In this document: piece by piece, positions 2-50,938 of the stretch | Layout of the letters: each line of letters begins with the position of its first letter | Position numbering within the stretch: position 1 is the stretch's first letter | DNA from: Dehalococcoidia bacterium | Lineage (GTDB): Bacteria; Chloroflexota; Dehalococcoidia; Plut-88900 | DNA length: 64,000 nucleotides | Assembly: GCA_965207225.1 (NCBI GenBank) | Contig: CBDBLV010000004.1 | Location: forward strand, 480,001 to 544,000 | Direction of reading: 5' to 3' | Translations under genes and position numbers: made by a program | Notes under the pieces: generated by a model | The model's input: the letters and a program-made list of their open reading frames with translations, nothing else | Databases searched by the model: none | Told to the model about the DNA's origin: nothing

Positions 2-1663
2 ATGTGGTTCGGTGACCTGGTAACCATGGAATGGTGGGACGACCTCTGGCTTAACGAAAGCTTCGCCTCCTGGATGGGCAACAAGGCCACCGACGCCCTC
101 TTCCCCGAGTGGTCCATGTGGACCCAGTTTCTTTACCAGGATGTCGGCGAGGGGCTCCGCATCGACGCTCTCCGCAACTCCCACCCCATCGAGGCCAACG
201 TCAAGGACCCCGGAGAAATCCGCGAAATCTTCGACGCCATTTCCTACAACAAGGGCGCCTCCATCCTTTGGATGCTGGAGCAGTACCTTGGCGAGGACAC
301 CTTCCGAGACGGGCTCCGTGTTTACCTATCCCGACACAAGTACGGCAACGCCCAGGGCGCAGATCTTTGGCGGGCTATGGAAGAGGAGTCAGGGCGGCCC
401 GTCATATCCCTCATGGACTCCTGGATAAAGCAGACCGGCTTCCCCGCCCTCACCGTCGATCCCTCCCCCGACGGCTCATCTCTAATCTTGACCCAGAAGC
501 GCTTTCTCTATGACCAGCTGCTGGGTGAAGACTCCGGAGATACCACCTGGAAGGTCCCCGTCAGTATCGCCCGCTCCGACGGCTCCTCTACTCCCCCCAC
601 CCTGATGGAGAGCCCTAACCTGACCATTCCCGTCGGCACTGATCAAGCCTGGACGAAGGTTAACCCCGGCCAAAATGGATTCTACCGAGTCCGCTATGCC
701 CCCGACATGCTGCCTCCCCTCCTCTCCGCCGCTTCCTCCTTCGAACTTCCCCCCACCGACCGCCTCGGACTCCAGTCCGACCTCTTCGCCTTGGTCCGCG
801 CTGGGATGGAACCCGCTACCCGCTATCTTGACTTAGTCGGTGCATACAGAGGTGAGACGGACGCCACGGTCTGGACCGACCTCTCCACCAACCTCCGCGA
901 ACTGGAAGTCCTCCTCGCCGATAACCCCAGCTTGGACCAGTTACGCTCCTTCAACAAGACTGTCTACGAAAACATAGTTGACAGGCTGGGATGGGAAGAG
1001 TCCTCCGGAGAAGGCCACCTCGACGCCCTGCTCCGCACGACTGTGTTGGCGAGAGCGGGAGGGCTCGGCAACGACGCCGTTCTTGAAGAAGCCCGTGACC
1101 GATTCCAGCGCTATCTCCAGGACCCTGCATCCCTCCGCCCCGACATCCGAGGAGTCGCCTACTCCCTCGTAGCCCTTGATGCCGACCGGGACCTCTACGA
1201 GACCCTCTGGGACCTCGAAGACAAGGCCACCCTCCAGGAAGAAAAACGTCGCCTGTTGGGTGCCGTCTCCCGCCTCCGGGACCCGGGCCTCCTGCAGGAG
1301 ACCCTCGAACGCTCCCTGTCGGATAGGGTTCGCGCACAGGACGCGCCCCTGGTCATAATCAGCGTCGCCGCTAACCGCTTCGGCCGAGACCTGGCCTGGG
1401 ACTTCGTCAAGGACAACTGGGCTGAATTCGACCGCCGCTACGGCAAGGGCGGTTTCATGATAATGCGCTTGGTGTCAATCACCGAGACCTTCACAACCAT
1501 CGAAAGGGCCGATGAAGTGGAGGGCTTTTTCCAGGCCAATCCCGTTGCCGGAGCCCAACGCACCGTCCAGCAAGCTCTGGAGAGCATCCGTCTCAACGCC
1601 CGCTGGCTGGAGCTCAACTCCGACCCCGTATCCGCTTGGCTGAACGCTCACCCTTCAGCCTGA
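2..1663 (+). CDS. pepN: M1 family aminopeptidase (5'-truncated by window)
   Basis: H-MWFGDLVTMEWWDDLWLNESF zinc-binding region, FDAISYNKGA, ERAP1-like C-terminus. Confidence 0.9.
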   Translation: MWFGDLVTMEWWDDLWLNESFASWMGNKATDALFPEWSMWTQFLYQDVGEGLRIDALRNSHPIEANVKDPGEIREIFDAISYNKGASILWMLEQYLGEDTFRDGLRVYLSRHKYGNAQGADLWRAMEEESGRPVISLMDSWIKQTGFPALTVDPSPDGSSLILTQKRFLYDQLLGEDSGDTTWKVPVSIARSDGSSTPPTLMESPNLTIPVGTDQAWTKVNPGQNGFYRVRYAPDMLPPLLSAASSFELPPTDRLGLQSDLFALVRAGMEPATRYLDLVGAYRGETDATVWTDLSTNLRELEVLLADNPSLDQLRSFNKTVYENIVDRLGWEESSGEGHLDALLRTTVLARAGGLGNDAVLEEARDRFQRYLQDPASLRPDIRGVAYSLVALDADRDLYETLWDLEDKATLQEEKRRLLGAVSRLRDPGLLQETLERSLSDRVRAQDAPLVIISVAANRFGRDLAWDFVKDNWAEFDRRYGKGGFMIMRLVSITETFTTIERADEVEGFFQANPVAGAQRTVQQALESIRLNARWLELNSDPVSAWLNAHPSA

Positions 1664-1690
1664 ACGCCCTCTCCCCTCGATCGAAAGATG

Positions 1691-1721
1691 AGGGGACTGC
1701 CTCAAGCGGCAGTCCCCTTTT
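1691..1721 (+). terminator. Intrinsic terminator hairpin
   Basis: AGGGGACTGC-loop-GCAGTCCCCT followed by T-run, between convergent genes. Confidence 0.75.
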
Positions 1722-1761
1722 CTCATTTAGTGGAGAAGGCTATAGAGAGGCGGCTTTTCTC

Positions 1762-2739
1762 CTACAGCACTTCCTTCAGCCCCGACTCCAGCTCATCCAA
1801 CGACGCGTACCCCTCGTATTTGGCGGTTATCAGTCCGTCTGAATCGATAATGAAGACCCAACTCTCATTCAGGTAGTCTTCGGATTTCGTCAGGCCCCAC
1901 TCCACCACCACCGGTGAGTAGATGCCCATGTCCAAGCTCGACTGGATTTCAATCGGGTTGTCGTAGATTTCTACGTGGATGAAGTTGGCCTGGTCCGCAT
2001 ACAGGTTCTTGAGCTCCGTAACAGTGTCGACCTGTGGTCCGCAGGTCGGGGAGGTGCAGAACCCGGGGCTCGACATCACCACCACCAACGGCATCCCCGA
2101 CTCCAAAGCCTCCGGTATGGTCGTCTGGTAAAGGTCCAGGTCCGCCCTCGGCCAGGTCGTTATTTCCGTCAACCCTGTTTCATCAGTAGCCGTCTTGTTC
2201 ACCGTCAAAGGCGGCGCTGAGCCAATGGCCGGAGTGTAACTATCCTCCTTGACTTCAACATCCATTACCGCGGAGGCGAGGGTCTCCTCGCCCCGTGCTA
2301 TCACTGCTTCTATCTGCCATGCTCCGGGCCTGTCGAACGTCAACTCGGAAACGTAGTTGCCCCTCGTCCCGAAGGGCCAGAGGTGGAACCTGCCACTTGC
2401 CCTTTCGACTTCTTCTCCCCCAAACAGGGTTCGCACTTGGATCTGGGGCAGCGACACCAACCCCTCCGAGGTCTGCAGCACGAAGGAGACCCTGTTGGCG
2501 CCCACCCCTAGGTCCTTAGTCCCCAGCAAGCCCTCAAGGTCTGGGAACGAGGCTACGCCCATTGCGACGGGCGTTTCTCCCGGCTCCGCGGCAGGTTCGT
2601 CTCTGGCCTCTTCGGCCGGTGCCTGGGTCGCTTCGGCGGTCGGGGCCGCCGTGGGGGGTGTCTCTCCTCCGCCGCACGCCATGAGTATTAGCAAGCCCGC
2701 GATCAGAACAAGGACAACGACGGCACTTCGCAGGCGCAT
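1762..2739 (-). CDS. Lipoprotein with thioredoxin-like C-terminal domain
   Basis: GGAGGAG SD then MRLRS, lipobox LMAC, Pro/Ala/Glu linker, FCTSPTCGP motif. Confidence 0.7.
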   Translation of the reverse strand: MRLRSAVVVLVLIAGLLILMACGGGETPPTAAPTAEATQAPAEEARDEPAAEPGETPVAMGVASFPDLEGLLGTKDLGVGANRVSFVLQTSEGLVSLPQIQVRTLFGGEEVERASGRFHLWPFGTRGNYVSELTFDRPGAWQIEAVIARGEETLASAVMDVEVKEDSYTPAIGSAPPLTVNKTATDETGLTEITTWPRADLDLYQTTIPEALESGMPLVVVMSSPGFCTSPTCGPQVDTVTELKNLYADQANFIHVEIYDNPIEIQSSLDMGIYSPVVVEWGLTKSEDYLNESWVFIIDSDGLITAKYEGYASLDELESGLKEVL

Positions 2740-2758
2740 TCGACTCCTCCTCCCCTGC

Positions 2759-4030
2759 CTAGAACCCCGTCGAGTACGACCCGAAGGTGAAGGCGTAAAC
2801 ATTGAAGTCCTCCGAATTGGAGCTGAGCTTGAGTTCGTGGCTGCCGTAGGCGGGCAGACGGATTAGCCGGTACATGCGGGGTTCGTCCACCGTTATTACC
2901 GTCATGTCCTGTCCGTTCAGCTGCAGGTCGTCACCCCAGGCGTCCATGGGCACCGGCTGGTCGTCCAGTGTAATCACCACGTCGTACGGGTCCACGTCCT
3001 CAGAATTGATAACTACGTTCACTGAAGTCCCGAAGAACTTCAGTGCAATGTAGTCTTCCAGGTTCTCCGTCTGCCTGTCGTGCTCGATGCTCTCCGGTCC
3101 GTTCACCCACACCCCTTCCAGGTACAGGAAGTGGTTTGTGTGGTTGCCAGGGTCCGAATACACCGCCGACGTATTCAATGGCGTGAAATAGTATTCATTG
3201 TTGCCGTGATACGGAATCTGTGCTCCCAGGTTCCTGTGCGTGCCCGCATACAACTCCCGGGTCTGAAGCACCCGGCCCTCTTCATCGTAAGCCCCCTCAT
3301 CCAGCCTGGGGCCCGTGTCCACATTCACCTGGATGTCTGAAACATCCGACCCGATCTCCTCGAGCAGCATTCGGATCCATTCCTCGGTCTCATCGTAGCG
3401 CCCCTCTCCAAAGTGCCTGTATCGGATTACGCCGTCCTGGTCGATCAGGTATTTGGCCGGCCAGTACCGGTTGTTGTAAGACCGCCACGTCCTGAAGTCG
3501 TTGTCCTGCGCCATCCTCCAGCCGAGCCCATGCTGCTCCACCGCCGCGACCACGTTGTCGTAGTCCTTTTCAAACTCAAACTCCGGCGTGTGTATCCCAA
3601 CAATGTTCAGCCCAAGGTCGTCATACTTTTCATGCCAGTCCTTCAGGTAGGGCAGCGTTCGCAGACAGTTGACGCATGTATATGTCCAGAAGTCCACCAG
3701 AACCACCTCTCCCCGCAGACTCCCAAGGGTGAACTCGTCCGTGTTTATCCATCCGGATATTCCCGAAAGATCCGGCGCTATGCTCCCGACTTCCCCCGCT
3801 ACTTCTGAATACACCTTCGACGTGGCCGTAGGCACGGGCCCCGAGGGCGTTGCCGTAGGATCGGCGGCTGCCGTGGAATCCGATGTCTGCTGTTCGCCTG
3901 TCGAGACAGTCTCCCCTTCGCCGGATGTTTCACTGGCATCTCCTCCGCATGCTGCAATCGTCAGCACGGTAAAGAGCAGCACCGTAACCAGCGCAAGGCC
4001 CATTTTCCTCAACCGGAATTGTCTCTTCAT
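2759..4030 (-). CDS. DipZ-like redoxin lipoprotein
   Basis: Lipobox IAAC; VDFWTYTCVNC, GIHTPEFEFEK, YWPAKYLID, C-terminal YAFTFG typical of DipZ. Confidence 0.85.
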   Translation of the reverse strand: MKRQFRLRKMGLALVTVLLFTVLTIAACGGDASETSGEGETVSTGEQQTSDSTAAADPTATPSGPVPTATSKVYSEVAGEVGSIAPDLSGISGWINTDEFTLGSLRGEVVLVDFWTYTCVNCLRTLPYLKDWHEKYDDLGLNIVGIHTPEFEFEKDYDNVVAAVEQHGLGWRMAQDNDFRTWRSYNNRYWPAKYLIDQDGVIRYRHFGEGRYDETEEWIRMLLEEIGSDVSDIQVNVDTGPRLDEGAYDEEGRVLQTRELYAGTHRNLGAQIPYHGNNEYYFTPLNTSAVYSDPGNHTNHFLYLEGVWVNGPESIEHDRQTENLEDYIALKFFGTSVNVVINSEDVDPYDVVITLDDQPVPMDAWGDDLQLNGQDMTVITVDEPRMYRLIRLPAYGSHELKLSSNSEDFNVYAFTFGSYSTGF

Positions 4031-27509: not shown

Positions 27510-28392
27510 TCTTTCCCGACTCCCATCGGGAACCCATCCCCAGGGGCAGGGGTTCCGTTCGTCCTGAGCGGAATCGAAGAGCCTGCCCCGAGTCCCTAGA
27601 GGGGGAGAGGGGGACCAAGGGGGTGAGGGCTCCCTCCCCAGACGGAGGGGCCGCTCATGCTGAGGTCACTCGAAATATGAGCGGGGGGCGGCCCGCGCAT
27701 TGCTCAACTATCGCCTTGCCCTACCACCAACCCGCGCCCCTCCTTTTCCATTCCGATGCCCCGCGAGGAATCTCAAACGCCTTTCACTAAACCCACCCTG
27801 TTCCTTACCTCTCCCATCCTTCCATCGCACCCCCCTTGGTAACGAATTAACAGAAATGCTGCCTAGCAGCATTTCTGATAATTCAATAAAACAGGGCGGG
27901 CGGGTGGGACTCCTATTATTCCCGATGGGTCGGGGAAAGGGTCCTCTCTTTCCTTTCCACCCCCCCGACCCGGGCCTCATCCCTTCCTTCTCCCTCAAAG
28001 TACTGAACTGGAGGCAGCTGTCATTCCGATGCCCCGCGAGGAATCTGGGGCGGGGCGCCTCCATCCCCGGTACTGAGATAGAGGCGGAGGTTGGCGCATC
28101 AAAGCCAGCCTCCGCCTTTGTTCTTCTCTCCCTCCACCGTAGGGGTGCCCCTCGCGGGTACCCTGCCCGCCACCCACGCCAAGACTTGCATCGCCCCAAA
28201 ACCGAGCCATCCCCCTCCTCACCAGTACTGAACTAGAGGCAGGCGTGGGTGCGTTGCACCCACGCCTGCCTCTGCTCTTCTTTCCCCCTCTCCCTTATAG
28301 GCCCTAAGAGCCTGCCCCGTACCCCAATACGGGGGAGAGGGGGACCAAGGGGGAGAGGGTTCCCTTGGGGGGCTGGGGGGTATTCCCCCAAA
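27510..28392. repeat. Mosaic cluster of REP-like palindromes
   Basis: CATTCC..GGAATC, CCCCTCTCCC..GGGAGAGGGG, GTAG-type and AGTACTGAACTAGAGGCAG hairpin units, shared with 23353-23511, 24781-24822 and 48146-48490. Confidence 0.8.
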
Positions 28393-28407
28393 GCCGTACA
28401 TTTGCTC

Positions 28408-28436
28408 TTGACACAGCTGTCCGACCGTACTATCAT
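28408..28436 (+). promoter_or_regulatory. Sigma70-type promoter
   Basis: TTGACA-17 nt-TATCAT with no ORF downstream. Confidence 0.75.
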
Positions 28437-28442
28437 ACCCTG

Positions 28443-29032
28443 CGTCCGATCGAACGCTAACTCACATAAGCAAAGGAGGAACCAAAAACCTAAGGGAAGC
28501 CCCCGAGACCCGACACCGAGGACTCAACACCCTAGCCCATCCCAATACCTCTCCCCTCTCTTGTAGGGGCGACCGGCCAATCGCCCTCCCTTCTGAGGCG
28601 GGCAGGTTGCGGCACAAGCGAACAGCGCCATCTCCTCATCTTCACGGGTCCCGTGTCCCTTCCCTACCCATCCAGGCGATGGAAGGTCCACAACATTAAC
28701 CGGCACGCTCCTCACAAGGGAGCCCTGCCGAAAAACCTCGGGCTATTACGCCCTTGGAAAAATCTCCCCCGTCGTTCCCCTCGGAGATTCCCTTTAACCC
28801 AGCGACGGCAGCGAGAAAACGTGTTCCCCACCCCTCCGAGTGGGTCGAGCCAAACTGAAAAACTGGTGGTAGAGATGCCCTCTGGCGAGAAGTCCTCGCT
28901 TGTCTGCCATGTGACACAGGAACACGGGGCTGAACCAGGCTGGCCTCCCGCCCCCTGAAACTGAGTCCCGGACCTTCCATCGCCGACCCCCTCCAAAACA
29001 GACAAAACGAAAAAGAAAACCCTACAACTGAA
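28443..29032 (+). ncRNA. Putative large structured ncRNA, copy 1 (unassigned family)
   Basis: Scaffold shared with 48568-49197, long-range stems, upstream promoter, no conserved ORF. Confidence 0.55.
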
Positions 29033-29152
29033 TGCGGTCGTGATGTCTCTCATAGCCATCCGAACGAGTACACCGCCTTGAACCCGAGCCCCCCATCCCC
29101 GATAATGCCCCTATCTCGACCCCCTGACGCAACCCTTGGGAGGAGGAACGCT

Positions 29153-30544
29153 ATGAGGGCCACCGACGCCGCGATCGCATTTATCCACAACACCACGCTC
29201 GACGACATGCCGCCCGAGGTGCAACACCTCGGCAAGCGCGCCATTCTCGACACCGTAGGCGTGTCCCTGGCCGCCGCCAGGGACGAGGCCGTAGCCATCC
29301 TATCCGAGACCCTCGCCGGCCGCGGCGGCAACCCCACGGCCACCGTCATCGGCCGCGACCAGCGCGCCGACGCCCTCTCAGCCGCCCTCGTCAACGGCGT
29401 CATGGCCCACGCCCTCGACTATGATGACGTCAACGATTCCTGCATGGGCCACCCCAGCGCCCCCCTCGTCCCCGCCGTTCTCGCCCTCGGCGAAGAGCTC
29501 GGGTCGTCAGGGGCCCAGGTCCTGGAGGCCTTCCTCATAGGCTTTGAGCTCGAATGCAAGCTTGGCCTGGCCATCGGCAACGCACACTACGCCAGGGGCT
29601 GGCACGCCACCGCCACCACCGGCACCATGGCCGCCGCGGCCGCCTGCTCCAAGCTGCTGGCCCTCAACCCCGACCGCATAGGCATGGCCCTCGGCATCGC
29701 CGCCTCTTCATCCGCCGGCATGAGGATCAACTTCGGCACCATGACCAAGCCCTTCCACGTCGGGCAGGCCGCCCGGGCCGGCCTGATGGCGGCCCTTCTC
29801 GCCTCCAACGGCTTCACAGCCTCCGCCGACATCCTTGACCACCCCATCGACTACACTCGCGTCTTCGCCGACAAGGACGAAGCCGACTCCTCCCGCATAG
29901 TTGGCACGTTGGGCAACCCCTGGGACATCGTCTCCCCCGGCCTCGTCGTAAAGAAGTTCCCCTGTTGCAACAGCACCCACCGCACCATCGACGCCACCCT
30001 CGCCCTCGCCCACGAGCACACCCCCTCCCCCGACTCCATCGACAACGTCGTCATCTCCATGCCCCCCGGCGAGGACATCCCCCTCATCTACAGCCGCGCC
30101 ACCACCGGCCTCGAGGGCAAGTTTTGCATGCAGTACTGCGTGGCATCCGCCATCCTGGACCGCAAGGTCACCCTCGACACTTTCCAGCAGGACCACGTCG
30201 ACAGGGAGGAAGTGCAACGCCTCTCAGGCCTGGTCAAGCTCGAATACGATGACACCCAGGAGCCCGTCGTGGTCAACGCTGGCGGCTACATCGACGTCAC
30301 CATCAATATGAAGGACGGCAATTCTTTCACCCGGCGCATCGACAAGGCCCGCGGCACCCCCGAGTACCCCCTCACCGACGAAGAGCTCACCGACAAGTTC
30401 AACTCCTGCGCCGTCAGAACCCTCGACCCCCCCCAGGTCAAACAGGCCGCCTCCCAAATCTTCGCTCTCGATGACCTCTCCGATGTCAGGGATCTGATGG
30501 CCACCATCGCGGCCCCCGCCCTGGCTCCCGCCCGCGGCAGCTGA
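29153..30544 (+). CDS. MmgE/PrpD family protein
   Basis: HALDYDD, GHPS, RGWH, GTMTKPFH, KKFPCC, GKFC. Confidence 0.9.
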   Translation: MRATDAAIAFIHNTTLDDMPPEVQHLGKRAILDTVGVSLAAARDEAVAILSETLAGRGGNPTATVIGRDQRADALSAALVNGVMAHALDYDDVNDSCMGHPSAPLVPAVLALGEELGSSGAQVLEAFLIGFELECKLGLAIGNAHYARGWHATATTGTMAAAAACSKLLALNPDRIGMALGIAASSSAGMRINFGTMTKPFHVGQAARAGLMAALLASNGFTASADILDHPIDYTRVFADKDEADSSRIVGTLGNPWDIVSPGLVVKKFPCCNSTHRTIDATLALAHEHTPSPDSIDNVVISMPPGEDIPLIYSRATTGLEGKFCMQYCVASAILDRKVTLDTFQQDHVDREEVQRLSGLVKLEYDDTQEPVVVNAGGYIDVTINMKDGNSFTRRIDKARGTPEYPLTDEELTDKFNSCAVRTLDPPQVKQAASQIFALDDLSDVRDLMATIAAPALAPARGS

Positions 30545-30740: not shown

Positions 30741-32340
<1,600 letters not shown>

Positions 32341-48145: not shown

Positions 48146-48490
48146 TAATTCCCGCCTCGGCGCGGGGCCGCTCGCCCTGAGGCCCCTCGAAGAGCCTGCC
48201 CCTGCGAAGGCAGGGGGTCAAGCGGGGGGTGGCCCACCCCCCGACAACCCCTCACTTCCATCCATCGCCAACCCCCGCCCCTCTCTGTCATTCCGATGCC
48301 CTGCGAGGAATCTGGGGCGGGGTGGGTGGTCCCCCTCCTCCCTCCAGTACTGAACTAGAGGCAGACGTGGGTGCGCTGCACCCACGTCTGCCTCTGTTCT
48401 TCTCTCCCCCTCTCCCTTATAGGCCCTAAGGGAGAGGGGGAGAAAGGGGGTGAGGGTTCCCCTGGGGGGTTGGGGGGTATTCCCCCAAAA
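48146..48490. repeat. REP-like palindrome cluster
   Basis: Same unit types as 27510-28392. Confidence 0.8.
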
Positions 48491-48507
48491 CCCGTGCCCA
48501 AAAGCCC

Positions 48508-48535
48508 TTGACTTCTATTACACCCGTGCTAAACT
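48508..48535 (+). promoter_or_regulatory. Sigma70-type promoter
   Basis: TTGACT-16 nt-TAAACT with extended -10 TG, at the position equivalent to 28408-28436. Confidence 0.65.
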
Positions 48536-48541
48536 GTTTCA

Positions 48542-49197
48542 CAGTTCGAACTGATATTCAGTAACTTAAGGAGGAACCAAAAACCCAGGGAAGCCCCGAG
48601 ACCCAACCCGAGGACTCAACGCCCTAGCCCATCCCAATGCCTCTCCCCTCCCATAGGGAGGCGACCGGCCAATCGCTCCCCTTGCGAGACAGGAAGGTTG
48701 CGGCACAAGCGAAAAGCGCCATCTCCTCACCTCACGGGTCCCCGTGTCCCTTCCCTGACCCACCAGGCGATGGATGGTCCATCGACTCTATGCGGCATCA
48801 GGCCTCTCTATGACGACGCCCTTGCCGATACGACGCCCCTTACCCAGGCGTATACGCCTCGCCGACTTAACCCTCGCCGAGGAATTCCGCGAGTCTTCTG
48901 ACTCGTTTTCCAGGGCCTTAGTGCCCTTATGCGGCTCCTCCCGCCCACGGCGGCTTCGAGCCGATATGCCGTCTCGTACAGCGGTCGAGCGCTGATGCCG
49001 GACGGATGTGCCCCGCGCAGAGACGCCCTCGACGCCGGCAAGTCTCCCAAGGCATGCGTGTAGGGAAAGGCAGGACAGCCGCCGATGCCACAAGCGTCAG
49101 CGTAGGTGCCAAAGAGATCCTGCATCTGAGTCCTGGACCTTCCATCGCCGACCCCCTCCAAAACAGACAAAATGCAAACCCAAACCCCACAACCGAA
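48542..49197 (+). ncRNA. Putative large structured ncRNA, copy 2
   Basis: Scaffold shared with 28473-29032, different internal domain. Confidence 0.55.
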
Positions 49198-49591
49198 CAA
49201 CACCTCCCCCACCGTCATCCCCGACTTACCCACCTGTCATTCCCGACTCCGATCGGGAATCCATCCCGAGGGGCGGGGTCGGGTTCCCGTAGGGACGACC
49301 CGCCGGTCGCCCTCCCCAGTGAGGAAGGTGAGGGTTCCCTCCCCGTTCCTTAAACAATCAAAGCCGTGCCTGAAACTGCAAAACAATCAAACACCCGCCC
49401 CTCCCTCTTGCCCCTGCACCACGCGAAATCCCCAGAAATCCCTTTAGGCGTCATTCAATCAAACCAGCTATGAGTTCAATCAAAACTCCACCCCCGCAGC
49501 GGACGACTCCAAGAGGCTCACCCACCCCTCCCAACGTGATAACCTACCCGCAGGAAGTCTGCGCAATGCAAGCAGACCGGAGGTGCCAGCC

Positions 49592-50938
49592 ATGACCACC
49601 ACGAGACCCGCCTTCCTCACCGATACCTACGCCGGTTACCACCACCGTGACGTCCCGACCGAAGACATCGACCTTACCCACGTCGGCCCCGGCACTCCCG
49701 CGGGTGAATACCTCCGACGCTTCTGGCAGCCCATCGCCCATTCCAATGACCTGGAGGACCTGCCCGTGAGAGTCCGCATCCTCGGCGAAGACCTCGTCGT
49801 CTTCCGGGACGGCGCCGGGCGGGTCGGGCTGCTGGAGCTGCACTGCTGCCACAGGGGGACATCCCTGGAATACGGCAAGATCGAGCCGGTCGGCATCAGG
49901 TGCTGCTACCACGGCTGGCTCTTCGACATATCCGGCAAAATCCTGGAGACCCCCGGCGAACCCGAGACCAGCACCCTGAAAGACCGTCTCTACCACGGCG
50001 CCTACCCCGCACACGAATATAACGGCCTCGTCTTCGCCTACATGGGCCCTCCCGACAAGATCTACCCTTTCCCCATCTACGACGCCTACACCGCGCCCGG
50101 CATGTCCCTCGCAGTCGGGACCGGGAACTCGAAGGACTGCAACTGGCTCCAGGTAATGGACAACGTTGTCGACCCCGTCCACGAGGCCTTCCTCCACGCT
50201 CGCATCAGCAACGTCCAGTTCACCGACTCCGAAGGTAAGCCAATCGATGCCCTCCTCGACGTTGGCGCCTTCGACGTTCTGGAGTCCCCCATCGGCCTCA
50301 TGTGCTGCGTAACCCGCCGCATCGACGGCCACATCTGGTCCCACAACGTCGAGTACATCGCCCCCAACATCGCCCACATCCCCCTCCCCCCCGACCTCCC
50401 CCTCAAGTACAACGAGGGCCAGGACCAGGTCTGCATTTACCCCACCCTCTTCCGGTGGCGCGTCCCCCAGGACGACACTACGACATTGGAATTCACCTTC
50501 ACCCGCACCCCCGAAGGCCAGGTCGACGAGTACACCAACAACCCCGAGTTTGCCACCATGGCCCAGAACGCCGGCGCCGCTCGGCCCTACGAGGACCGCC
50601 AGCGATTCCCCGCCGACTACGACGCCCAGGTCGGCCAGCGCGAAATCGCCGTCCACGACCTTGAGCACCTCGCCACCACCGACAGGGGCGTGATAATGAT
50701 GCGCCGTATGATCCGAGACGGCATCCTCGCCATCGAACAGGGACGGGACCCCGTCGGCGTCTTCCGGGACCCCCCACCCGACCCCATCCCCACCTACGGC
50801 TACGAGACCTCCGCCAAAATCCCCCCCGCCCCCACCCCCGAACAAGACGAGAAGCTCATAAAGGAGACTGGCTTGAACTTCGCTAGAAGCTACCTTTCCC
50901 AACCCCCCGCCCAGTCCCCCTGTTTGAGAATCCAGTAG
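49592..50938 (+). CDS. Rieske aromatic ring-hydroxylating oxygenase (phthalate dioxygenase-like)
   Basis: CCHRG..CCYHGW Rieske ligands, DPVHEAFLH, EHLATTD. Confidence 0.9.
   Translation: MTTTRPAFLTDTYAGYHHRDVPTEDIDLTHVGPGTPAGEYLRRFWQPIAHSNDLEDLPVRVRILGEDLVVFRDGAGRVGLLELHCCHRGTSLEYGKIEPVGIRCCYHGWLFDISGKILETPGEPETSTLKDRLYHGAYPAHEYNGLVFAYMGPPDKIYPFPIYDAYTAPGMSLAVGTGNSKDCNWLQVMDNVVDPVHEAFLHARISNVQFTDSEGKPIDALLDVGAFDVLESPIGLMCCVTRRIDGHIWSHNVEYIAPNIAHIPLPPDLPLKYNEGQDQVCIYPTLFRWRVPQDDTTTLEFTFTRTPEGQVDEYTNNPEFATMAQNAGAARPYEDRQRFPADYDAQVGQREIAVHDLEHLATTDRGVIMMRRMIRDGILAIEQGRDPVGVFRDPPPDPIPTYGYETSAKIPPAPTPEQDEKLIKETGLNFARSYLSQPPAQSPCLRIQ

What the first reader, a model, noticed from the sequence alone, without database searches (positions are those of the whole stretch)
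28408..29032. Two-copy promoter-driven ncRNA-like element: conserved scaffold plus swappable variable domain
Seen: 28473-28689 and 48568-48780 are close homologues, as are the tails 28961-29032 and 49126-49197. The middles (28690-28960, ~270 nt; 48782-49125, ~345 nt) do not align. Each middle is bracketed by an inverted repeat GGCGATGG(A/T)... (28675-28689/28970-28984; 48766-48781/49134-49149). Each copy follows its own sigma70 promoter, where the boxes are kept but the spacer has diverged. The scaffold pairs internally (AGGGAAG/CTTCCCT, GACCC/GGGTC, GCGA/TCGC), and GGACTCA (28520; 48612) can pair with TGAGTCC (28962; 49127) across the variable domain. No ORF is conserved. Inference: a family of ~600-650 nt RNAs with a constant core and modular cargo. 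I cannot match it to RNase P, tmRNA, SRP, group I/II introns, retron msr-msd or omegaRNA, and no partner protein is adjacent.
Basis: partly seen in the sequence, partly recalled or inferred. Interest (0 to 1): 0.88.

Follow-up and report, generated by a model that had tools for sequence, protein, structure and literature searches.

The report
Promoter-bearing modular repeat upstream of genes
The two look-alike stretches are members of a family of about forty non-coding, promoter-carrying modular elements per genome that sit in front of unrelated genes in one genus of uncultured Dehalococcoidia, and what their RNA does is still unknown.

Summary
It is not a two-copy feature. The genome holds about 40 co-linear copies, and all 8 other species of the genus carry dozens. 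Nothing convincing was found outside the genus. Each copy reads: terminator hairpin/REP, promoter, AAGGAGG box, nested scaffold, stem-closed exchangeable middle (at least 6 types), C/A-rich tail. No Rfam family matches and no ORF is conserved. A strong promoter sits at a fixed distance in 134 of 136 instances. Of 37 copies with a called downstream gene, 35 point at it; the 20 tested belong to 20 different Pfam families, including RpoB, NusA, LeuRS and Def. Middles differ between species at the same locus. Structure support is moderate and does not decide the strand. The GGACTCA/TGAGTCC pairing is not supported. No RNA data exist. Best reading, about 0.4: a cis-acting promoter plus structured-leader cassette reshuffled by recombination. 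Rivals are a trans-acting ncRNA family and a selfish mosaic repeat.

The parts
28222..28395 (+). Upstream module of copy A. It holds a 19-bp terminator-like hairpin (28234-28274) followed by a T-rich run, then a C-rich/G-rich REP-like palindrome.
   Evidence: One search finds the hairpin. One search shows homology with 48344-48495. The module has 188 BLAST hits in the genome at 113 non-overlapping hairpin loci, and 27 of these lie within 400 nt upstream of an element on the same strand.
28408..28436 (+). Sigma-70-like promoter of copy A (TTGACA-17-TATCAT).
   Evidence: scores it 11/12. Across 136 instances, 134 have a match of at least 9/12, and the -10 ends 30-39 nt before the AAGGAGG box in 128 of them. 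Control windows inside the elements give 0 of 136.
28473..28499 (+). 5' box AAGGAGGAACCAAAAACC(T/C)(A)AGGGAAG. It combines a Shine-Dalgarno-like AAGGAGG with no start codon after it and the 5' strand of helix P1 (28493-28499).
   Evidence: The box is nearly invariant in 48 aligned elements from 9 genomes. It is complementary to the 16S 3' end ...CACCTCCTTTCT read in this window. The sequence shows no ATG, GTG or TTG within 20 nt downstream.
28500..28674 (+). Scaffold of copy A. It contains P2 (GACCC 28507-28511 with GGGTC 28646-28650), whose loop carries optional inserted modules; the P1 3' strand CTTCCCT (28659-28665); and the junction to the closing stem.
   Evidence: One search shows scaffolds of 67 to 244 nt that differ only by nested insertions in the P2 loop. 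One search gives P1 92.8% paired and the main run of P2 94.6% paired.
28675..28689 (+). 5' arm of the closing stem (b), GGCGATGGAAGGTCC.
   Evidence: 98.8% paired. One search shows that the stem extension changes with middle type but stays complementary.
28690..28969 (+). Middle domain type A (midA).
   Evidence: There are 14 full copies in the genome at 89-96% identity, and it is conserved across the genus with invariant blocks. RNAalifold predicts helices, of which helix 564-571/580-588 shows compensatory changes. No coding signal is seen.
28970..28984 (+). 3' arm of the closing stem (b'), GGACCTTCCATCGCC.
28985..29032 (+). C/A-rich, G-poor tail ending ...CCCTACAACTGAA.
   Evidence: The tail has 32 hits in the genome. 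Over 110 tails the composition is A 45%, C 40%, G 10%, T 5%, with a median length of 47 nt.
29078..29106 (+). Second, gene-proximal promoter (TTGAAC-17-GATAAT) in front of the MmgE/PrpD-family gene, whose ATG is at 29153 and whose ORF ends at 30544.
   Evidence: scores it 9/12. One search shows the GATAAT context kept in other species. One search gives the Pfam match MmgE_PrpD_N at 7e-67.
48344..48495 (+). Upstream terminator-hairpin/REP module of copy B (hairpin 48356-48396).
48508..48535 (+). Sigma-70-like promoter of copy B (TTGACT-16-TAAACT, with TG before the -10).
   Evidence: Promoter type B has 12 hits in the genome.
48568..48780 (+). 5' box, scaffold and 5' arm of the closing stem of copy B (b = 48766-48780, GGCGATGGATGGTCC).
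48781..49135 (+). Middle domain type B (midB).
   Evidence: There are 6 full and 4 partial copies in the genome, all inside elements.
49136..49197 (+). 3' arm of the closing stem (49136-49150) and the C/A-rich tail of copy B. Further REP-like modules follow (49198-49330), then a Rieske-domain gene (49583-50938).
   Evidence: One search gives the Pfam Rieske match at 1e-17.

Best explanation
The finding covers two members of a genus-restricted family of about 40 non-coding modular elements per genome.

Shown by the calls:
- Each copy has a fixed order of parts: (1) a terminator-like hairpin plus REP; (2) a strong sigma-70-type promoter; (3) about 25-30 nt after the predicted start, an AAGGAGG box complementary to the 16S 3' end, with no start codon; (4) a nested scaffold (P1, P2) whose P2 loop accepts extra hairpin modules; (5) a 14-18 bp closing stem around an exchangeable middle of about 180-500 nt; (6) a C/A-rich, G-poor tail.
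- Copies sit in 5' intergenic regions and point at the downstream gene.

Inferred:
- The element is transcribed from its own promoter as a long, untranslated, structured RNA that runs towards the downstream gene.
- It acts in cis as an insulated upstream promoter/leader cassette.
- The hairpin stops incoming transcription.
- The AAGGAGG box binds 30S subunits and shields the 5' end from RNase J, as STAB-SD does.
- The G-poor tail is where Rho either ends the untranslated RNA or lets it read into the gene.
- The family is kept alike, and its promoter, scaffold and middle modules are reshuffled, by recombination between copies rather than by a dedicated transposase.
For: Copy number and co-linearity:
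- Module hits in the genome are scaffold 65, tail 32, midA 14 full, midB 6 full plus 4 partial, promoter A 18 and promoter B 12. They are always in the same order, giving 40 clusters.

Promoter under constraint:
- 134 of 136 instances from 9 genomes have a promoter match of at least 9/12 at a fixed distance. They carry many different spacer sequences. Control windows give 0 of 136.

Position and orientation:
- 35 of 37 copies with a called downstream gene are co-directional with it.
- In tandem gene contexts the count is 16 co-directional against 0 opposite. Nineteen copies lie in divergent regions. Only 2 lie in convergent regions, and one of those two is split by an insertion sequence (own rough gene caller).
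- Downstream genes are unrelated: 2 weak similarities among 35 proteins, and 20 of 20 tested fall in different Pfam families.

Same genes in other species:
- 19 of 21 G000 element-associated genes whose orthologue start lies in the fetched loci have the 5' box upstream there too. This sample is biased, because the loci were fetched for holding the element.
- In the unbiased sample of copy A's gene, the canonical element is present in 4 of 9 genomes and a related variant in the others.

What follows the tail:
- Only 7 of 107 tails are followed by the terminator REP within 150 nt.

Host factors and closing stem:
- The 16S 3' end reads CACCTCCTTTCT. RNase J scores 562 bits against a cut-off of 400. 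Rho scores 596 bits against a cut-off of 509.
- The closing stem is kept with different sequences in different middle types.

Literature:
- STAB-SD is described in passages of PMC12970973.
- Promoter-bearing repeats and putative mobile promoters are described in PMC3575422, read whole apart from the end of its reference list.
Against: - No transcript data exist. No RNA run holds the locus, so the start, the end and even the transcribed strand are unproven.
- The structure does not pick the strand. The minus strand folds to a lower energy in 48 of 48 elements, and its consensus structure has similar covariation support.
- Many genes have their own proximal promoter after the tail: 44 of 107 by scan, including rpoB, nusA and copy A's gene. 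The element is therefore not needed as the only promoter.
- Seven of 107 copies are followed directly by a terminator and cannot be leaders.
- Distance from the end of the detected modules to the gene start varies from 45 to over 1000 nt.
- The strong conservation of the middle domain has no role in this model.
- The orientation bias could come from selection against antisense or head-on transcription alone.
- The gene calls behind the orientation count come from my own simple caller.
Confidence: 0.4

Rival explanations
1. The family is a set of stand-alone, trans-acting structured ncRNA genes of about 450-800 nt. Each copy is its own transcription unit: promoter, RNA, then a Rho-dependent or hairpin stop at or after the tail. 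The conserved middle domain is the working part, for example a protein-binding or catalytic domain.
For: - Each copy has its own constrained promoter.
- midA has long invariant blocks across 9 species, while the flanking intergenic DNA is unalignable beyond about 60-230 nt.
- Predicted helices are 97.5% paired against 39-49% when partners are slid. Cells with changes on both sides number 33 against 8.2 in shuffles, 0 of 500 reaching the observed value.
- Seven of 107 copies are bracketed by terminators.
- A gene-proximal promoter often follows the tail, as expected if the element is a separate unit.
- A midA-like domain occurs with a different 5' scaffold at copy A's locus in other species.
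Against: - About forty copies with at least 6 unrelated middles is unusual for a trans-acting RNA.
- The 16:0 orientation bias in tandem contexts and the near-absence from convergent regions are not expected for free-standing RNA genes.
- No terminator follows 100 of 107 tails.
- Pairs with a change on both sides number only 6 against 4.1 in shuffles, with 80 of 500 reaching the observed value.
- There is no RNA evidence.
Confidence: 0.25
2. The family is a selfish, non-autonomous mosaic repeat of BIME/MITE type. It spreads or is homogenised at the DNA level. Copies survive only where a terminator plus outward promoter does no harm, which is upstream of and co-oriented with genes. The stems are DNA palindromes or relics of nested insertions, not RNA helices.
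For: - The family is multi-copy, restricted to one genus, and mosaic in promoter type, scaffold length and middle type.
- Small palindromic modules are nested inside scaffold loops.
- Copy B's locus shows gain or loss: the 5' box lies within 1.5 kb upstream in 2 of 9 genomes.
- The closing-stem extension behaves like terminal inverted repeats of each middle.
- Both strands fold equally well.
- Known precedents carry promoters: Correia elements, ERIC and REPIN are named in PMC3575422.
Against: - No middle occurs as a full-length solo copy outside the scaffold. All 14 full midA and all 10 midB copies lie inside elements; elsewhere there are only 45-80 nt fragments.
- No target-site duplication or outer terminal inverted repeat was seen in the 14-copy flank alignment.
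- No Y1/RAYT or TnpB-type gene is in the genome.
- Many positions are shared between species.
- The -35 and -10 hexamers are kept while spacers diverge, which indicates selection for transcription.
Confidence: 0.25
3. The element is a guide- or template-type RNA for a nuclease, recombinase or reverse transcriptase encoded elsewhere, in the manner of omegaRNA/reRNA, bridge RNA, or retron or DRT ncRNA. The variable part specifies a target.
For: - The layout is a constant scaffold plus a variable part.
- Four RVT_1 genes exist in the genome.
Against: - No Cas12f1-like_TNB/OrfB Zn-ribbon (PF07282) or Y1_Tnp (PF01797) match is found in the genome, although the same searches ring in control genomes.
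- The RT genes lie at least 16 kb from any copy, by comparing the coordinates.
- The variable middles are themselves repeated 6-14 times, so they are not unique guides.
- No Rfam match to HEARO, group II intron or retron families reaches any threshold.
- IS110-family genes were not searched.
Confidence: 0.05

Closest known systems
Putative mobile promoters (PMPs; Matus-Garcia, Nijveen and van Passel 2012, as summarised in PMC3575422, read)
   Same: Highly similar non-coding sequence, at least 80% identical over far more than 50 nt, lies upstream of non-homologous genes in one genome. It has no Rfam match and an unknown means of spread.
   Different: This unit is far larger, about 0.6-1 kb. It has a fixed multi-part anatomy: terminator, promoter, SD-like box, structured scaffold, exchangeable domain and tail. 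It usually lies upstream of a second, gene-proximal promoter. PMPs were defined on the -150 to -50 window only. The PMP lists in the NAR paper's supplements were not seen.
BIMEs/REP mosaics and promoter-bearing small repeats (Correia, ERIC, REPIN)
   Same: These are dispersed intergenic mosaics of palindromic modules, some carrying promoters and co-transcribed with neighbours. They are named in PMC3575422 and in the abstracts of PMC2817692 and PMC2229807 (search listings).
   Different: Those units are about 30-200 bp. REPs depend on RAYT (Y1) transposases, and Correia elements have terminal inverted repeats with TA duplication (recalled). Here no Y1 gene is found, no outer inverted repeat or duplication was seen, the unit is 3-10 times longer, and its orientation relative to genes is nearly fixed.
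STAB-SD 5' stabiliser of Bacillus thuringiensis cry3Aa mRNA (Agaisse and Lereclus 1996; passages in PMC12970973)
   Same: A perfect Shine-Dalgarno-like sequence lies in a long 5' untranslated region, is not used for initiation, and is complementary to the 16S 3' end. The organism has RNase J.
   Different: STAB-SD is a single short element in a few cry genes, acting at a processed 5' end. Here the box belongs to a repeated 0.6-kb cassette, and no stabilising effect has been measured.
   Same: The size range fits, helices are nested with optional insertions in loops, and each copy has its own promoter.
   Different: No Rfam match reaches gathering score, and in e-value mode only sub-threshold hairpin-type hits appear, nearly all on the upstream hairpin/REP module rather than on the scaffold, middle or tail. 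Copy number is about 40 per genome, and no partner gene is adjacent or, for TnpB and Y1, present at all.

Membership tests
Any Rfam 15 family | Covariance-model score at or above the family's gathering threshold | tested here: not met
   Over the whole window at gathering threshold, the only hit is SSU_rRNA_bacteria at 30741-32337. In e-value mode on 28150-29150 and 48300-49400 the best hits score 25-29 bits against thresholds of 95-96. Nearly all hits fall on the upstream hairpin/REP module.
Putative mobile promoter (PMP) | At least 80% identity over at least 50 nt upstream of genes that are not paralogues, within one genome | tested here: met
   Module identities are 80-97% over 70-340 nt. 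Downstream proteins are unrelated, and 20 of 20 tested fall in different Pfam families.
Putative mobile promoter (PMP) | The similarity lies in the -150 to -50 window before the start codon | not tested
   The detected modules end 45 to over 1000 nt before the called starts. The window criterion was not applied copy by copy.
MITE | Terminal inverted repeats at the outer ends and a target-site duplication | tested here: not met
   The flank alignment of 14 copies shows homology ending at ...CCCCACAAC(T/C)GAAT, with no matching inverted copy at the 5' end and no shared duplication. The only long inverted repeat is internal. Empty sites could not be aligned finely enough to be decisive.
REP/BIME mobilised by RAYT | A Y1 (IS200/IS605-type) transposase gene in the genome | tested here: not met
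   PF01797 gives 0 matches in the own genome, which is 92% complete, while the control genomes ring.
IS200/605 PATE with omegaRNA/reRNA | A TnpB or IscB-type nuclease in the genome, and a unique guide next to the scaffold | tested here: not met
   PF07282 gives 0 matches. The variable parts are repeated 6-14 times. IscB-specific domains were not searched.
Group II intron (ORF-less) | Domain V/VI signature (Rfam Intron_gpII and related models) | tested here: not met
   No such hit appears even at E up to 10.
STAB-SD-type 5' stabiliser | SD-like sequence complementary to the 16S 3' end, near the mRNA 5' end, not followed by a start codon | tested here: met
   AAGGAGG lies 30-39 nt after the -10 in 128 of 134 instances with a promoter match. 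The 16S 3' end is CACCTCCTTTCT. The sequence shows no ATG, GTG or TTG in the next 20 nt.
STAB-SD-type 5' stabiliser | Measured increase in mRNA half-life that depends on the box | not testable with these tools
   This needs RNA decay measurements. Only the presence of RNase J was shown.
Structured RNA (generic) | Helices supported by compensatory changes beyond what relatedness gives | tested here: inconclusive
   Cells paired reach 97.5%, against 39-49% when partners are slid. Cells with changes on both sides number 33 against 8.2 in shuffles (0 of 500). Pairs with such changes number 6 against 4.1 (80 of 500). The opposite strand gives similar figures. The closing-stem extension covaries between middle types.

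The most novel reading that the evidence does not exclude
The elements are a genus-wide system of cis-acting modular leader RNAs, a common 'expression cassette' placed in front of about 40 unrelated genes including rpoB, nusA, leuS, def and folD. A shared 5' ribosome-binding stabiliser and a Rho-entry tail would set a common post-transcriptional control. The exchangeable stem-closed middle domains would act as alternative sensor or protein-binding modules, swapped between genes by recombination. That would be a modular RNA regulon of a kind not described in bacteria.
Probability: 0.15. Interest if true: 0.8.

Novelty: new variant of a known kind. Interest (0 to 1): 0.5.

Why it matters
If the cassette is functional, about 1% of this genus's genes, including core transcription and translation genes, share one transplantable promoter-and-leader unit with interchangeable RNA domains. 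That would be a natural example of modular expression cassettes. It would also show recombination rewiring gene control in an uncultured lineage (Dehalococcoidia), where almost nothing is known about RNA-level regulation. If it is only a selfish mosaic repeat, it is still useful. It explains assembly breaks in these genomes, marks 5' regions and gene orientation, and gives a genus-specific sequence signature.

Tried and rejected
**Rejected or unresolved readings**
- Known RNA family: Rfam at gathering and at E up to 10 gave nothing relevant.
- Hidden ORF: variable sites fall 16/18/20 over the three codon positions in midA, 1-nt indels are present, and no frame stays open in all 14 copies.
- Autonomous copy with a cargo gene: the one 3.1-kb 'long' copy (C1:66973-70072) is a scaffold split by an inserted two-gene element on the other strand. 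From its 526-aa and 264-aa ORFs I read it as IS21-like. That name is recalled and was not tested against Pfam.
- Strand from structure: G.U cells outnumber A.C cells 257 to 55 on the plus-strand structure. This is circular, because the minus-strand prediction shows the mirror bias, folds to lower energy in 48 of 48 elements, and has similar shuffle statistics. I dropped it as evidence.
- GGACTCA/TGAGTCC pairing: not supported.

**Searches that found nothing or could not answer**
- Wider distribution: BLASTN found nothing in 3 other genera of the family or in 29 other families. A core covariance model run on 151 genomes of the class gave one marginal hit outside the genus, E 0.0013. The exact 5' motif gave 0 hits in viral contigs and 0 in JGI metagenome contigs. 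These mean 'not found in those searched', not 'absent'.
- Expression: the look-up of sequencing runs listed no RNA holder. Read laying had only Logan contigs of 4 runs. Those contigs break up in the repeat, and their joints correspond to other scaffold forms. Nothing about expression, ends or strand can be drawn from them.
- Boundaries from empty sites: the region upstream of copy B's gene is too diverged between species for fine mapping. Only about 60-230 nt next to the gene aligns.
- Literature: the search (Dehalococcoidia with repeat, MITE, noncoding RNA and mobile promoter terms) had no Dehalococcoidia paper among its 8 listed results. I found no description of this element.
Full report
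**1. The observation**

The two regions were read directly and aligned.
- The scaffold 28473-28689 matches 48568-48781 at 88% identity, and the tails match at 88.9%.
- The middles do not align.
- The 15-nt inverted repeat brackets each middle. It is perfect in copy A and has one T.T mismatch in copy B.
- Each copy follows a sigma-70-like promoter: 11/12 at 28408-28436 and 9/12 at 48508-48535. Shuffled sequence gives 0.2-0.3 such sites per region.
- Homology also extends upstream into a 19-bp terminator-like hairpin with a T-rich run and a REP-like palindrome, at 28222-28395 and 48344-48495.

**2. Scope**

BLAST of the parts against the window's own genome (4.03 Mb, 5 contigs, laid) shows that this is not a two-copy feature.
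- Hit counts are scaffold 65, tail 32, midA 14 full copies at 89-96%, midB 6 full plus 4 partial, promoter type A 18, promoter type B 12, and the upstream hairpin/REP module 188.
- The hits cluster into 53 places. Forty of these are co-linear elements, always in the order promoter, scaffold, middle, tail.
- Further middle types (C to F and others) share the same ends.
- One copy is split by an inserted two-gene element that I read as IS21-like (the name is recalled).
- All 8 other species of the genus have dozens of matches. Three other genera of the family and 29 other families of the class have none by BLASTN.
- The exact 5' motif occurs in 93 stretches of the 185,579-species collection. All 80 listed are titled 'Dehalococcoidia bacterium' MAGs.
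- An 80-position covariance model of the core found the element in the own genome and in 5 of 5 genus genomes in a 151-genome sample of the class. It gave one marginal hit (E 0.0013) elsewhere.
- The motif has no exact match in viral contigs or JGI metagenome contigs.

**3. Anatomy**

Sorting scaffolds by length shows a nested design.
- The minimal 67-nt form reads AAGGAGGAACCAAAAACCC-AGGGAAG-...GACCC-loop-GGGTC...-CTTCCCT-...-GGCGATGGA.
- Longer forms, up to 244 nt, differ only by insertions in the GACCC/GGGTC loop. Some insertions are small palindromic modules that also occur elsewhere in the genome.
- The closing stem has a constant 9-bp part (GGCGATGGA/TCCATCGCC). Its extension changes with the middle type but stays complementary: GGTCC/GGACC, AGACGCCC/GGGCGTCT after a one-base bulge, or AGATGC/GCGTCT.
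- The tail is 45% A, 40% C, 10% G and 5% T, with a median of 47 nt over 110 tails.
- Among 136 distinct instances from 9 genomes, 134 have a promoter match of at least 9/12. The -10 ends 30-39 nt before the AAGGAGG box in 128 of those 134. They carry many different spacers. Control windows inside the elements give 0 of 136.

**4. Not coding, not a known RNA**

- Rfam finds only the 16S gene in the window. Around the two copies it finds only sub-threshold hairpin-type hits.
- Variation in midA shows no three-base periodicity (16/18/20), single-base indels are present, and no frame stays open across the 14 copies.
- No start codon follows the AAGGAGG box.

**5. Context**

I built a simple codon-usage gene caller to place each element relative to its neighbours.
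- Of 37 elements with a called downstream gene, 35 point the same way as that gene.
- In tandem gene contexts the count is 16 to 0. Nineteen elements lie in divergent regions and 2 in convergent regions, and one of those two is the split copy.
- The orientation of the upstream gene is random (19 opposite, 18 same).
- The 35 downstream proteins are unrelated, with only two weak similarities.
- The 20 I tested belong to 20 different Pfam families: MmgE/PrpD (copy A), Rieske (copy B), RpoB, NusA, LeuRS, Glu/Gln-tRNA synthetase, peptide deformylase, catalase-peroxidase, FAD synthetase/riboflavin kinase, FolD, Lgt, MoaA, and assorted hydrolases, transporters and oxidoreductases.
- After the tail, 44 of 107 copies have a further promoter-like site, often 40-49 nt on. 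Seven have the terminator REP, and 56 have neither.
- rpoB, nusA and copy A's gene each have a strong proximal promoter of their own.

**6. Evolution**

- The same genes carry the element in other species: 19 of 21 checkable genes. This sample is biased, because the loci were fetched for holding the element.
- Two loci were sampled without that bias.
  - Copy A's gene has the canonical element in G000, G008, G005 and G007. G001, G006 and G003 show a related variant with the closing-stem 3' arm and a midA-like region; in G006 the upstream part also shows a promoter and a different 5' part. G004 and G002 are similar but more diverged.
  - Copy B's gene has the 5' box within 1.5 kb upstream only in G000 and G008.
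- At the ribF and luciferase-like monooxygenase loci the middle type differs between species. The middle is therefore exchangeable in evolution.
- Flanking intergenic DNA is unalignable beyond about 60-230 nt between species, yet the 5' box and blocks of midA are invariant in 48 elements.
- No Y1 transposase or TnpB-type domain is found. Four RT genes exist but lie far from any copy.

**7. Structure**

- On 48 midA-type elements (alignment A2), RNAalifold predicts 79 pairs.
  - It is 97.5% paired, against 39-49% when partners are slid.
  - Thirty-three cells carry changes on both sides, against 8.2 in shuffles (0 of 500).
  - Only 6 pairs carry such changes, against 4.1 in shuffles (80 of 500).
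- One midA helix (columns 564-571 with 580-588) has clear compensatory changes.
- The GGACTCA/TGAGTCC pairing is not supported. Its 5' half is absent from 13 of 48 elements. Among the rest, 25 cells are unpaired, against one wobble and one double change.
- The strand cannot be told from structure. It rests on the promoters and on orientation.
- RNAalifold also offers an alternative in which the CTTCCC tract pairs with the AAGGAGG box instead of with AGGGAAG. That could hide or expose the box, but I did not test it.

**8. Reading**

Shown:
- a genus-restricted family of about 40 copies per genome;
- a fixed modular anatomy;
- a constrained promoter;
- placement upstream of, and co-oriented with, unrelated genes;
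- exchangeable middles;
- no coding signal and no known RNA family.

Inferred, at about 0.4: a cis-acting, insulated promoter/leader cassette.
- The AAGGAGG box would work like STAB-SD (passages in PMC12970973). It is complementary to the 16S 3' end, and RNase J is present.
- The G-poor tail would be a Rho entry site, and Rho is present.

Rivals:
- a trans-acting ncRNA family (0.25);
- a selfish mosaic repeat that survives only in harmless orientation (0.25);
- a guide or template RNA for a distant partner (0.05).

No RNA data exist. The closest described kinds are putative mobile promoters and promoter-bearing repeats (PMC3575422, read). This unit is much larger and has a fixed multi-part anatomy, so I file it as a new variant of a known kind.

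Noticed in passing
window 30741-32337: A full-length bacterial 16S rRNA gene (1509 bits). It has an insertion of about 98 nt relative to the Rfam model near model position 82, and stands apart from any 23S in the following 1 kb of ORF listing.
   Followed up: no
window 28234-28274 and 48356-48396; genome-wide: A 19-bp terminator-like hairpin plus REP module occurs at 113 non-overlapping loci. Where no element follows, the downstream gene is still co-oriented in 57 cases and opposed in 28, so the hairpin is more than a plain end-of-gene terminator.
   Followed up: partly
L043 (G000:C1:66500-70500), about 540-3180: A two-gene insertion (526-aa and 264-aa ORFs, which I read as IS21 IstA/IstB-like) splits one element copy. 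The reading was not tested against Pfam.
   Followed up: partly
L191, L193, L194, L195, about -500 to -190 before the MmgE/PrpD gene start: In four other species a small conserved ORF lies between the element variant and the gene. It begins MPRGGRRPGAGAPKGNYNAFKHG... . It is missing at copy A in this window.
   Followed up: no
L193 upstream region (about -1450 to -560 before the gene): At copy A's locus in another species, a promoter (TTGACC-17-TATATT) is followed by a different 5' part, but then by a midA-like domain closed by an ATGGAAGGTCCC/GGGACCTTCCAT stem. This hints at a wider superfamily that shares the middle domain.
   Followed up: partly
scaffold loops, e.g. L047, L011, L008; window 49230-49260: Small palindromic modules of the type (GTCAT)CCCCGAGACGTCGGGG(AC) or GTCATTCCCGA...TCGGGAATCC are nested inside scaffolds. 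They also occur on their own in intergenic DNA.
   Followed up: no
G000:C2:158087-158773, C5:1548409-1549095, C5:1553608-1554405, C5:1671488-1672288: Four reverse-transcriptase (RVT_1) genes are present. Two show identical Pfam matches in 586-aa frames, and two lie in 641-aa and 652-aa frames with the domain match split in two. None is next to an element.
   Followed up: no
window 27600-28221: The stretch upstream of copy A holds several further short repeats shared with other intergenic regions. The 178-aa ORF at 27700-28236 was not supported by my codon-usage caller.
   Followed up: no
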